Source of the DNA: Naegleria gruberi
Lineage: Eukaryota
Length of the DNA stretch: 1,475 nucleotides
Strand: one strand, 5' to 3'
Assembly (NCBI GenBank): GCA_000004985.1
Contig: GG739412.1
In this document: positions 1 to 1,475 of the stretch, piece after piece
Position numbering within the stretch: the stretch's first letter is position 1
Layout of the letters: the number at the start of each line of letters is the position of its first letter
Notes under the pieces: model-generated
What the model was told of the DNA's origin: nothing
The model's database searches: none
What the model saw: only the letters and a program-made list of their open reading frames with translations
Made by a program: the position numbers and the translations under genes

Positions 1-26
1 CACTACCACACAGAGAATCAGACGAT

Positions 27-162
27 ATGAATCACGTTACTGCTCATTACAAGCCTTTGTTGGATCAAATTAATGAATTGGAAAATTCGAGAAGGCTTCA
101 GGAATGCAAGCTGGTGGAAGAGAGGACCAGACATGCTAAGACTCTTAAGGAATTGGAGGAAT
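27..162 (+). CDS. Exon 1 (ATG at 27; ends phase 1 at 162). Frame 3 stays open back to nt 3, so the true start could lie upstream of the window
   Basis: Frame-3 translation of 27-161 is MNHVTAHYKPLLDQINELENSRRLQECKLVEERTRHAKTLKELEE with no stops. ATG at 27 has a purine at -3. Frame 1 (ORF-track frame, MNWKIREGFRNASWW...) is W/R-rich and unlike the rest of the protein. GTAAGT donor sits at 163. Confidence 0.6.
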
Positions 163-1014
163 GTAAGTATAGATGATTGTCAACAGATTTCTCAAAGGCT
201 AACTTTTTCAGTCAACTTGAAGCATCAAAAGCTGCTCGCTAATGAAACATTATTGAAGGAAAAGATTACTCATTTGGAGGCTGATTTGATGCATGAAATC
301 AAGACTGGTGAACAACTCAAGCAATCTGCCAAATACTGCAAGCAAGAGGAGGAGGTTTTTCAAACTCATTTGGCAAGATTTGAGGTGGAAAGTAATCAAG
401 TAATGTAAGTAGAGAATACTAATTGTATATCCTAATTGTGATGAAAAGTTGTGATTTGAAAAAGGAACTTGAGGATGCAGAGAAGAATTTTGAGAAGGCT
501 TGTGAAATGTGGAACAACCGACAAAATGTTAGAGAAATGCAAATGTTAAAATCTCAAGTTGAAGAATATGAAGGAAGTAAGTAATCAATGTTCAATAGTG
601 ATAATTGTTTCAGGACTAAGGGCTGATGAGAGTGTGTATGAGGAAAAATTGAAGAGAATTAAAAGTTTGGAGGCTCAAATCAAGATGAAGAAGGAGCAAT
701 CGAATGAGATGGACTCTTTCATCAAGTCTTTAGATGAAAAAATTGCACAGATGCATAATGATATTGAGAAGGCGAAGGGAAATTGTTCAATGGTAAATGA
801 TGTTATTTCTACTGAACAGGCAGAGTTGGCCATTCAACACTTTATAACTGAGAGCACTCAACTTCAAAAGAACCTTGAAGATATCCAAAACTACAATCAA
901 ATTACAAGAGAGGATATCGAGCACCACGAAAGAATGCAAGAAACCATCCTTCAGCTCATAGAATCAAAAATTTGTGAAGCATGTTATCAACTTGAAAACT
1001 CAATGGTAGATTAA
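27..1014 (+). CDS. Spliced protein-coding gene (4 exons: 27-162, 212-404, 449-576, 614-1014; stop TAA 1012-1014) encoding a ~285-aa predicted coiled-coil protein; function unknown
   Basis: Three open reading segments lie in different frames: frame 3 at 3-162, frame 1 at 214-404, frame 3 at 450-575 and frame 1 at 616-1014. They are joined exactly by GTAAGT...YAG introns with exon lengths summing to 858 nt (286 codons incl. stop). Conceptual splice gives MNHVTAHYKPLLDQINELENSRRLQECKLVEERTRHAKTLKELEE-F-NLKHQKLLANETLLKEKITHLEADLMHEIKTGEQLKQSAKYCKQEEEVFQTHLARFEVESNQV-I-CDLKKELEDAEKNFEKACEMWNNRQNVREMQMLKSQVEEYEG-R-LRADESVYEEKLKRIKSLEAQIKMKKEQSNEMDSFIKSLDEKIAQMHNDIEKAKGNCSMVNDVISTEQAELAIQHFITESTQLQKNLEDIQNYNQITREDIEHHERMQETILQLIESKICEACYQLENSMVD*. 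Composition (E/K/L/Q-rich, heptad spacing of hydrophobics) is uniform across all exons. That uniformity argues the junctions are real and the supplied ORF track (73..408, 559..1014) is an intron/wrong-frame artefact. Confidence 0.8.
163..211 (+). other. Intron 1 (49 nt): GTAAGT donor, CTAAC branch motif at 199-203, TTTTTCAG acceptor
   Basis: gtaagt at 163-168; ggCTAACtttttCAG ends at 211. Removal joins t(162)+tc(212-213)=TTC (Phe) and moves the reading frame from 3 to 1, exactly where the downstream open frame resumes (214...). If retained, frame 3 hits TGA at 174-176. Confidence 0.8.
212..404 (+). CDS. Exon 2 (phase 1 in, phase 2 out)
   Basis: Frame-1 codons 214-402 read NLKHQKLLANETLLKEKITHLEADLMHEIKTGEQLKQSAKYCKQEEEVFQTHLARFEVESNQV. 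This matches the downstream part of track ORF 73..408. GTAAGT donor at 405. Confidence 0.8.
405..448 (+). other. Intron 2 (44 nt): GTAAGT donor, TACTAAT (417-423) / CTAAT (432-436) branch candidates, AAAAG acceptor ending 448
   Basis: The in-frame TAA at 406-408 that ends track ORF 1 lies inside this intron. Splicing joins at(403-404)+t(449)=ATT (Ile) and shifts to frame 3, which is then open for 42 codons (450-575) up to the next GTAAGT. The alternative acceptor at 463-464 leads to an early stop. Confidence 0.8.
449..576 (+). CDS. Exon 3 (phase 2 in, phase 1 out)
   Basis: Frame-3 codons 450-575 read CDLKKELEDAEKNFEKACEMWNNRQNVREMQMLKSQVEEYEG with no stops. This segment is invisible in the ORF track because it has no ATG and is bounded by intronic stops. 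Confidence 0.78.
577..613 (+). other. Intron 3 (37 nt): GTAAGT donor, no canonical CTAAY branch (best candidate tgATAAT 598-604), TTGTTTCAG acceptor
   Basis: gtaagt at 577-582; ttgtttCAG ends at 613. Joins a(576)+ga(614-615)=AGA (Arg) and returns to frame 1, which is open for 133 codons to TAA at 1012-1014. The TTG 'start' at 559 in the track ORF is a bacterial-table artefact. Confidence 0.72.
614..1014 (+). CDS. Exon 4 (terminal exon, stop TAA 1012-1014)
   Basis: Codons 616-1011 read LRADESVYEEKLKRIKSLEAQIKMKKEQSNEMDSFIKSLDEKIAQMHNDIEKAKGNCSMVNDVISTEQAELAIQHFITESTQLQKNLEDIQNYNQITREDIEHHERMQETILQLIESKICEACYQLENSMVD, identical to the C-terminal 132 aa of track ORF 559..1014. Confidence 0.85.
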
Positions 1015-1026
1015 TTTATTGAGCTT

Positions 1027-1032
1027 AATAAA
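1027..1032 (+). promoter_or_regulatory. Putative polyadenylation signal AATAAA in the 3' UTR
   Basis: aataaa at 1027-1032, 13 nt downstream of the TAA stop, followed by a U-rich stretch (tctttgtactatgtttg). Confidence 0.45.
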
Positions 1033-1080: not shown

Positions 1081-1269
1081 ACTTTTCAATTAATAACAGA
1101 GTGGGATAGCTCCAAATCTGACGGAAAGTGCAATGTCTTATTGAAGCCAGCCAAAGTGTGCAATTAAGCACAACTCTGAACCCAACAAAAAATTGAGATA
1201 ATAGTATTGCACCCCGTAGGATGCTTTCAGCTATTACACTGAAAAGAACAGATACTACACTCGATCAAA

Positions 1270-1279
1270 GCCAATTGGC
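1270..1279. promoter_or_regulatory. Perfect 10-bp palindrome GCCAATTGGC containing a CCAAT box on both strands
   Basis: gccaattggc at 1270-1279 is its own reverse complement. CCAAT pentamer at 1271-1275 (+) and 1278-1274 (-). Sits 38 nt upstream of the TATA-like element at 1317. Confidence 0.35.
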
Positions 1280-1316
1280 GAGAAAGATACTATGAAGAAT
1301 TGAAAAAAGCACAGAG

Positions 1317-1324
1317 TATAAATA
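1317..1324. promoter_or_regulatory. TATA-like box TATAAATA (reads TATTTATA on the opposite strand)
   Basis: tataaata at 1317-1324 in an ORF-free intergenic stretch. Orientation and target transcript undetermined. Confidence 0.3.
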
Positions 1325-1448: not shown

Positions 1449-1475
1449 TACCGACAATGGGGCTCGAACCCACGA
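1449..1475 (-). tRNA. Partial tRNA gene (3' portion only: T-arm, acceptor 3' strand, discriminator), truncated by the window edge; isotype not determinable
   Basis: Minus strand reads 5'-tcGTGGG-TTCGAGC-CCCAT-TGTCGGT-A-3'. That is a T-stem GTGGG/CCCAT (one G.U pair), a 7-nt T-loop TTCGAGC (T54 T55 C56 R57 A58), a 7-nt acceptor 3' strand and discriminator A at 1449, with the canonical G53-C61 pair. It is followed immediately by T-runs. D-arm and anticodon lie beyond nt 1475. Confidence 0.6.

What the first reader, a model, noticed from the sequence alone, without database searches (positions are those of the whole stretch)
27..1014. Encoded 285-aa protein is an almost pure coiled coil with no recognisable catalytic motif
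The whole conceptual translation is E/K/Q/L-rich with hydrophobic residues at 3-4 spacing, for example LEAQIKMKKEQSNEMDSFIKSLDEKIAQMHNDIEKA. There are no Walker, zinc-finger or transmembrane-like segments. The only non-helical hints are G/N/P residues at the exon 3/4 and mid-exon-4 positions. There is a C-terminal CEAC (CxxC) pair within KICEACYQLENSMVD. In fission yeast, proteins of this size and type are typically structural, such as spindle-pole-body, kinetochore, meiotic-recombination or septation adaptors. Many remain uncharacterised or lineage-restricted. I cannot assign a name from sequence alone.
Basis: inference. Interest (0 to 1): 0.5.

Follow-up and report, generated by a model that had tools for sequence, protein, structure and literature searches.

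The report
Uncharacterised Naegleria coiled-coil rod protein
The window holds a real four-exon gene of the amoeboflagellate Naegleria (not fission yeast) for a 285-residue, almost entirely helical coiled-coil protein found only in Naegleria and close relatives; its function is unstudied, so it is an ordinary orphan structural protein and not a surprise.

Summary
Splicing exons 27-162, 212-404, 449-576 and 614-1014 gives a 285-aa protein. It is rich in E/K/L/Q (45%) and has long unbroken heptad runs. It has no Walker motif and no membrane segment, and it has a single C-terminal CxxC.

AlphaFold models of the N. lovaniensis orthologue and of the window's own exon-4 product are about 90% helix in three long helices. 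No Pfam, NCBIfam, PDB-sequence or fold match rises above generic coiled-coil noise.

The organism guess is wrong. The gene is Naegleria gruberi NAEGRDRAFT_50709 or a near-identical strain. Full-length colinear orthologues exist in N. fowleri, N. lovaniensis (51% identity) and Willaertia magna, with identical intron positions.

A search of 1.84 billion proteins found only these proteins, ORF fragments of them, four distant unnamed environmental proteins and one 4,900-aa repetitive protein I take to be a generic coiled-coil match.

Two features stand out: a near-invariant N-terminal segment (aa 7-45), conserved on all helix faces, and the conserved CxxC.

My best reading is a parallel dimeric rod acting as a structural adaptor. 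In this reading the N-terminus docks a partner and the Cys pair clamps the tail. That is inference, not shown. Interest is low.

The parts
27..162 (+). Exon 1 (start codon 27-29; aa 1-45 plus the first base of codon 46)
   Evidence: Donor GTAAGT at 163. Same intron position and phase in N. fowleri. Exact match to the N. gruberi model P0015.
163..211 (+). Intron 1, 49 nt, GTAAGT...CTAAC...CAG
   Evidence: The junction is colinear with orthologues, without indels.
212..404 (+). Exon 2 (aa 46-110), skipped in the deposited N. gruberi 183-aa model
   Evidence: pN 0.31 against saturated pS versus N. fowleri.
405..448 (+). Intron 2, 44 nt, GTAAGT...AAAAG
   Evidence: same position and phase in N. 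fowleri.
449..576 (+). Exon 3 (aa 110-153), also skipped in the deposited N. gruberi model
577..613 (+). Intron 3, 37 nt, GTAAGT...TTTCAG. The deposited model uses an internal AG at 597-598 instead.
614..1014 (+). Exon 4 (aa 153-285; stop codon 1012-1014)
   Evidence: AlphaFold of this product: two helices.
45..161 (+). Near-invariant N-terminal segment, aa 7-45 (HYKPLLDQINELENSRRLQECKLVEERTRHAKTLKELEE)
   Evidence: Invariant but for E42 in three Naegleria species. Conservation over four genomes is 0.94 at core and 0.88 at surface heptad positions, against 0.3-0.5 elsewhere. pN 0.077 with pS 0.71. The motif is recognisable in the distant proteins P0011-P0014.
310..360 (+). Second conserved patch, aa 79-95 (EQLKQSAKYCKQEEEVF)
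516..521 (+). Position equal to the helix 1 / helix 2 break of the orthologue model (aa 133-134)
   Evidence: AlphaFold of P0001 breaks at its residues 131-132. Mapped through alignment A1. Inferred for the window protein, which has no Pro here.
787..810 (+). Non-helical, low-confidence linker, aa 211-218 (SMVNDVIS), just after KGNC
   Evidence: AlphaFold of the window exon-4 product: pLDDT below 50 at fragment residues 58-61 and a break at 59-65. The orthologue's break at 209-220 is variable in length.
973..984 (+). CxxC (C273-E-A-C276) near the C-terminus
   Evidence: Both Cys are invariant in Naegleria, Willaertia and P0005 and in P0014.
1027..1032 (+). AATAAA 13 nt after the stop codon; a possible polyadenylation signal
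   Evidence: Read directly from the sequence. Not tested.

Best explanation
This is a genuine, expressed-type protein-coding gene of Naegleria gruberi or a near-identical strain. It encodes a 33.8-kDa acidic (pI 5.2) protein that is one long alpha-helical rod, broken at two points into helices of roughly 125, 75 and 65 residues.

I propose that two chains pair in parallel and in register into a two-stranded coiled coil up to about 40 nm long. This rod would serve as a structural adaptor or tether and not as an enzyme.

The near-invariant N-terminal 39 residues, conserved on every face of the helix, would be the docking site for a conserved partner or a higher-order bundle. The variable middle would act as a spacer. 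The conserved C-terminal CxxC pair would lock or join the tails, by zinc shared between chains or by disulfides.

Shown: the gene model, purifying selection, helicity, heptad periodicity, absence of any known domain, the conservation pattern and the restricted distribution.

Inferred: the oligomeric state, the partner binding, the role of the cysteines and the cellular structure it belongs to.
For: Gene model and coding status:
- The model is colinear with three full-length orthologues.
- Intron positions and phases are identical in N. fowleri.
- Synonymous sites are saturated (pS 0.7-1.0) while pN is 0.08-0.44.

Rod-like helical structure:
- AlphaFold gives about 90% helix at pLDDT 88-89 with low pTM (0.32-0.36), as expected for an extended rod.
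- The heptad score is z = 4.9 above shuffles, with two unbroken runs of 13-15 heptads.

Parallel dimer:
- Position a is mainly Ile/Leu and position d mainly Leu. By the GCN4 core rules (established knowledge) this favours parallel dimers.

Docking site and Cys pair:
- Surface positions of aa 7-45 are as conserved as core positions, 0.88 against 0.94. That implies contacts beyond a simple dimer core.
- The CxxC is conserved across Naegleria, Willaertia and two environmental relatives.

No enzymatic or globular domain:
- No family reaches a curated threshold.
- PDB sequence hits are keratin, Jun and phage needle coiled coils at E >= 0.006.
- Foldseek against PDB finds nothing.
Against: No multimer prediction, expression, localisation or biochemical data exist, so the dimer, the partner and the Cys function are untested.

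In my heptad register the two Cys fall at b and e positions, on the outside of a parallel dimer. That is not an obvious geometry for a shared four-Cys site.

The most conserved stretch (aa 22-39) has polar residues at nominal a/d positions. The N-terminus may therefore not be a canonical dimer at all.

The two helix breaks would allow a folded-back bundle instead of an extended rod.

No formal COILS or Marcoil prediction was run.
Confidence: 0.5

Rival explanations
1. It is a highly diverged subunit of a conserved eukaryotic coiled-coil complex, for example a kinetochore, augmin, axonemal docking/N-DRC, BLOC/BORC or Mediator-type subunit. It would pair with different chains and not with itself, and its ancestry would be invisible to sequence searches.
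Confidence: 0.25
2. The chain folds back on itself at the two breaks into an antiparallel three-helix bundle or hairpin (spectrin-, BAR- or ESCRT-like), so it is a compact module and not a 40-nm rod.
For: There are two conserved break points. Helices 2 and 3 are similar in length (76 and 63 residues).
Against: Helix 1 (124 residues) is far longer than the other two. pTM of 0.32-0.36 indicates no confident inter-helix packing in the monomer models. Foldseek found no bundle-type match. The only BAR-type hit, amphiphysin, is at E = 2.
Confidence: 0.15
3. It is a single stable alpha-helix (SAH/ER-K type) spacer and not a coiled coil.
For: E+K+R content is high at 30%. AlphaFold predicts isolated long helices.
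Against: 29% of residues are large hydrophobics (LIVMFYW), from the counts. They sit at 3-4 spacing, with Ile/Leu at a and Leu at d, far above shuffles. SAH domains lack such a seam (established knowledge).
Confidence: 0.04
4. The deposited 183-aa N. gruberi model (exon 1 joined to an AG inside intron 3) is the true or a major product, and exons 2-3 are not coding.
For: The alternative junction is in frame and is in the reference annotation.
Against: Exons 2-3 are colinear with, and 50-62% identical to, the N. lovaniensis orthologue. They align without junction indels to N. fowleri and Willaertia and have pN of 0.30 against saturated pS. They contain the second conserved patch. N. fowleri has the same three introns.
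Confidence: 0.04

Closest known systems
Naegleria gruberi predicted protein NAEGRDRAFT_50709 (XP_002674686.1 / D2VM80), 183 aa
   Same: It is the same gene. Exon 1 is identical in protein sequence and exon 4 differs at only a few residues.
   Different: The deposited model skips exons 2 and 3 and reads 7 codons of intron 3. The window's 285-aa product is the orthologue-supported form. The small differences show the window is another strain or haplotype. A metagenome contig is 98.6% identical over window 1-731.
Hypothetical proteins FDP41_003821 (N. fowleri, 289 aa), C9374_001646 (N. lovaniensis, 288 aa) and ABK040_007302 (Willaertia magna, 310 aa)
   Same: They are full-length colinear orthologues, 51% identical for the two Naegleria proteins and 33% for Willaertia. 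They share the N-terminal segment, the KYCKQEEEVF patch and the C-terminal CxxC. N. fowleri has the same intron positions and an upstream DUF3501 gene, which is also present in the Naegleria-like contigs L004 and L007.
   Different: None of them is characterised or named. The linker before helix 3 varies in length and sequence.
Rad50 zinc hook (CxxC at a coiled-coil apex; two chains share one zinc)
   Same: A conserved CxxC embedded in coiled coil with no other metal ligands in the chain. Two chains would be needed to make a four-Cys site.
   Different: There are no ATPase head domains and no Walker motifs. The CxxC is at the C-terminal end and not at the apex of an antiparallel arm. NCBIfam Rad50 scores are 8-21 bits against cut-offs of 700-1087. 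This is an analogy only.
Tropomyosin-type two-stranded parallel coiled-coil rods (about 284 aa)
   Same: Similar size, near-complete helicity, continuous heptads and about 40 nm predicted length.
   Different: There is no sequence relationship: the Pfam tropomyosin model does not appear even at E <= 10. This protein also has two helix breaks and a Cys pair.

Membership tests
Any Pfam-A family | Score at or above the family's gathering threshold | tested here: not met
   The best hit for the window protein is 11.4 bits (cut-off 25.6). For orthologues the best is 19.4 bits, Sec3_CC (cut-off 27.1). All hits are coiled-coil or DUF noise.
SMC / Rad50 (NCBIfam TIGR02168, TIGR02169, Rad50 models) | Whole-protein score above the curated cut-off; N- and C-terminal ATPase halves with Walker A/B | tested here: not met
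   Scores are 7.9-27.1 bits against cut-offs of 567-1087, and align only to the coiled-coil arms. There is no Walker A motif.
Rad50-type zinc hook | CxxC at the apex of an intramolecular antiparallel coiled coil, binding zinc between two chains | tested here: inconclusive
   A conserved CxxC is present, but it lies 10 residues from the C-terminus and not at an apex. Metal binding cannot be tested with these tools.
Heterolobosean NAEGRDRAFT_50709-like family (unnamed) | N-terminal LLDQINELENSRRLQECKL-type segment, EQLK..KY.K.EEE patch, about 285-310 aa all-helical, C-terminal K(L/I)CxxC, three conserved introns | tested here: met
   All identifiable hits are Naegleria or Willaertia. There is no fungal hit in 1.84 billion representatives.
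Canonical left-handed coiled coil | Heptad periodicity of hydrophobic residues over most of the length, with high helicity | tested here: met
   Heptad score z = 4.9 with runs over residues 1-104 and 134-226. a = I/L and d = L. About 90% helix. COILS and Marcoil themselves were not run.
bZIP (Jun/AP-1 hits in the PDB search) | Basic DNA-binding region immediately N-terminal to a leucine zipper; significant match | tested here: not met
   E = 0.02-0.4 to the zipper part only. Pfam bZIP appears only for the distant P0013, at 14.4 bits below its cut-off of 22.3.

The most novel reading that the evidence does not exclude
The protein founds an undescribed protist family: a dimeric rod with an invariant N-terminal docking helix, whose C-terminal CxxC pairs act like a Rad50 zinc hook placed at the tail. 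Two rods would be joined tail to tail into a metal-dependent tether of about 80 nm, used in an amoeboflagellate-specific structure such as the de novo basal-body/rootlet apparatus or the acentriolar closed spindle.
Probability: 0.08. Interest if true: 0.45.

Novelty: new member of a known kind. Interest (0 to 1): 0.2.

Why it matters
The practical value is modest.

First, it corrects a gene model. The N. gruberi reference protein (183 aa) lacks 102 residues that are conserved in all relatives.

Second, it defines a small family with two sharply conserved features: an N-terminal 39-residue segment and a C-terminal CxxC. These are obvious handles for pull-down and mutagenesis. The family consists of Naegleria and Willaertia plus a few unnamed environmental relatives.

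Because the family is present in the pathogen N. fowleri and has no detectable relative in animals, it could serve as a lineage marker.

It does not bear on any long-standing open question as far as the evidence goes.

Tried and rejected
Searches that gave nothing above noise:
- Pfam and NCBIfam scans of the window protein and eight relatives gave only sub-threshold coiled-coil noise.
- PDB sequence searches with 3- and 8-sequence profiles gave keratin, Jun and phage-needle hits at E >= 0.006.
- A second and a third word-indexed protein search, with family profiles including an N-terminal-only one, found nothing beyond Naegleria and the four environmental proteins.
- Metagenome scans: the automatic patterns gave no relative. 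My degenerate pattern for NE[LV]EN[ST]RRL[QE]E hit one bacterial contig by chance.

Literature:
- Searches for the gene and protein accessions returned nothing.
- The supplement of the Naegleria microtubule-network transcriptome preprint does not contain the id in the part held.
- The 2010 Naegleria differentiation microarray paper is not held.

- The spliced 285-aa sequence could not be submitted to the restricted tools, so orthologues and exon pieces were used instead.
- MAFFT misplaced exon-4 fragments in three attempts.

Ideas considered and dropped:
- A transmembrane or tail-anchor segment (hydropathy too low).
- A bZIP, a single alpha-helix domain and a BAR-like bundle (see the rival explanations).
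- CtIP/Sae2 (only about 10 residues follow the CxxC, and the Pfam SAE2 model is not hit).
- LZTFL1, SF-assemblin, HAUS1 and tropomyosin (their Pfam models are not hit).
- The other strand has no ORF longer than 52 aa within 27-1014.

Full report
**What is in the window.**
The + strand from 27 to 1014 carries a four-exon gene: exons 27-162, 212-404, 449-576 and 614-1014. The three short introns (49, 44 and 37 nt) all begin GTAAGT and end AG. Splicing gives 858 nt, or 285 codons plus a stop.

**Composition and periodicity.**
- Composition is E 16%, K 10%, L 10% and Q 8%, with 3 Gly and 1 Pro.
- A simple heptad score (hydrophobic residues at a/d minus elsewhere, best register in 28-residue windows) is 0.566, against 0.404 +/- 0.033 for 200 shuffles. 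That is z = 4.9, and no shuffle reached it.
- One register runs unbroken over residues 1-104 and another over 134-226.
- There is no Walker A motif. The highest 19-residue hydropathy is 0.44, so there is no membrane segment. A single CxxC lies at residues 273-276. The predicted mass is 33.8 kDa and the pI 5.2.

**The gene is real and the 285-aa model is right.**
- The protein matches hypothetical proteins of Naegleria lovaniensis (288 aa) and N. fowleri (289 aa) at 51% identity over 96% of its length. There are no indels at any exon junction.
- An exhaustive HMMER search added a 310-aa Willaertia magna protein.
- I reconstructed the N. fowleri gene from its contig. It has three introns at exactly the same codon positions and phases.
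- Between the window and N. fowleri, synonymous sites are saturated (pS 0.7-1.0). The non-synonymous proportion is 0.077 in exon 1, 0.30-0.31 in exons 2 and 3, and 0.44 in exon 4. All four exons are therefore under purifying selection as protein.

**The organism is Naegleria, not fission yeast.**
- The N. gruberi reference protein NAEGRDRAFT_50709 (XP_002674686.1, 183 aa) is identical to the window's exon 1. It differs at only a few residues in exon 4.
- That model joins exon 1 to an AG inside intron 3 and omits exons 2 and 3.
- A metagenome contig is 98.6% identical to window 1-731.
- That contig, another Naegleria-like contig and the N. fowleri locus all have a DUF3501 gene just upstream.

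**What the protein looks like.**
- AlphaFold2 of the N. lovaniensis orthologue, with a 10-row alignment, gives helices 7-130, 133-208 and 221-283. Mean pLDDT is 88.7 and pTM 0.32.
- AlphaFold2 of the window's own exon-4 product gives helices at window residues 155-211 and 219-283, with a low-confidence break at 211-218.
- The high local and low global confidence is what an extended rod gives.
The Gly at the exon 3/4 junction is not a break in the orthologue model, which lacks that Gly. That model instead breaks at the position equal to window residues 133-134.

**Comparison with known families.**
- No Pfam or NCBIfam family reaches its cut-off for the window protein or eight relatives. The hits are to the coiled-coil arms of SMC and Rad50 (8-27 bits against cut-offs of 567-1087) and to assorted coiled-coil or DUF models.
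- Profile searches of all PDB sequences give keratin, Jun zippers and a phage tail needle at E >= 0.006.
- Foldseek against PDB gives nothing.

**Distribution.**
- HMMER against 1.84 billion representative proteins gave 13 hits.
- Eight are the Naegleria and Willaertia proteins or ORF fragments of them called on metagenome and SRA assemblies. These include two ORFs from a near-identical strain: P0008, identical to a window ORF, and P0004, one residue different.
- One is a 4,900-aa repetitive protein that I take to be a generic coiled-coil match.
- Four are distant unnamed environmental proteins (P0011-P0014). They share the N-terminal motif, and P0014 also shares the C-terminal CxxC.
- P0014's ORF reads through at least one intron, so it comes from a eukaryotic genomic contig.
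- Two further profile searches and two metagenome scans added nothing.
- No paper in the library mentions any of the accessions.

**Two features that carry information.**
- Residues 7-45 are invariant in three Naegleria species except E42 (D in the other two) and almost unchanged in Willaertia. Conservation there is 0.94 at core (a/d) and 0.88 at surface positions, against 0.3-0.5 in the rest of the protein. Nominal core positions in residues 22-39 are polar. A plain dimer core does not need conserved outer faces, so this segment most likely contacts something else.
- The C-terminal CxxC is invariant in every full-length or C-terminal member found, although the surrounding helix is only about 30% conserved. 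Elsewhere the core is Ile/Leu at a and Leu at d, the pattern that favours parallel two-stranded coils by the GCN4 rules (established knowledge).

**Most likely mechanism.**
I commit to a parallel homodimeric rod that works as a structural adaptor or tether. At 1.5 A per residue it would be up to about 40 nm long if the two breaks stay straight. The N-terminal segment would dock a conserved partner and the Cys pairs would clamp or join the tails through shared zinc or disulfides. Confidence is about 0.5 for the general picture and much less for the cysteine role.

Against it, my register puts the Cys at b and e positions, which face outward in a dimer. Nothing here tests oligomeric state.

The rivals are:
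- a diverged subunit of a known heteromeric coiled-coil complex (0.25);
- a folded-back bundle (0.15);
- a single alpha-helix spacer (0.04, contradicted by the hydrophobic seam);
- the 183-aa product being the real one (0.04, contradicted by conservation).

**Verdict.**
This is a real, correctly modelled, lineage-restricted and uncharacterised coiled-coil protein of Naegleria. It is ordinary in kind. Its main value is the corrected gene model and the definition of a small family with two sharp motifs. Interest is 0.2.

**Also in the window.**
- A full-length U2 snRNA gene lies on the minus strand at 1102-1290 (107.6 bits, E 2e-22), convergent with the protein gene.
- The last 27 bases look like the 3' end of a minus-strand tRNA cut by the window edge.

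Noticed in passing
window 1102-1290, minus strand: A full-length U2 spliceosomal snRNA gene (Rfam RF00004, 107.6 bits against a gathering score of 46, E 2e-22, model positions 1-192). The branch-point-binding GUAGUA box is intact. Its 3' end lies 88 nt from the stop codon of the coiled-coil gene, in convergent orientation. No U2 is found in the 21-kb N. fowleri locus or in the two Naegleria-like contigs, which do not extend downstream of the gene, so the adjacency is not seen in N. fowleri.
   Followed up: partly
window 1449-1475, minus strand: Probable 3' third of a tRNA gene (T-arm GTGGG-TTCGAGC-CCCAT plus acceptor strand), cut off by the window end. The truncated Rfam tRNA match is 13.9 bits at E = 1, and ARAGORN finds nothing. 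A run of six T on the minus strand (1438-1443) follows 5 nt downstream, like a Pol III terminator. The tRNA sits about 160 nt upstream of U2 on the same strand.
   Followed up: partly
window 1317-1324: TATAAATA on the + strand (TATTTATA on the minus strand) lies 27-34 nt upstream of the U2 5' end. It could be a TATA-like promoter element for the snRNA gene.
   Followed up: no
window 27-162 joined to 599-1014, compared with P0015: The deposited N. gruberi protein NAEGRDRAFT_50709 (183 aa) skips exons 2 and 3 by using an AG inside intron 3, adding LIIVSGL. Orthologues show this is an annotation error, not an isoform supported by conservation.
   Followed up: yes
L001 8859-9293; L004 277-744; L007 2125-2559: A DUF3501 (PF12007) gene sits immediately upstream of the coiled-coil gene in N. 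fowleri and in two Naegleria-like metagenome contigs. This is conserved local synteny.
   Followed up: partly
L002 627-694: The 275-aa distant relative P0014 (SRA assembly SRR25885115) contains a hydrophobic stretch (YAVLILQILRFSMCMRVIYYMF) that is a GTATGC...TTTAG intron read through by the ORF caller. The true protein is shorter and the source is an unidentified AT-rich eukaryote.
   Followed up: partly
window 73-408 and 423-584, + strand: Public protein collections contain ORFs called with prokaryotic rules on Naegleria DNA in metagenome and SRA assemblies. Examples are P0004, which differs from the window ORF 73-408 by one residue, and P0008, identical to the window ORF from its second Met. 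They mix exon and intron or out-of-frame sequence.
   Followed up: yes
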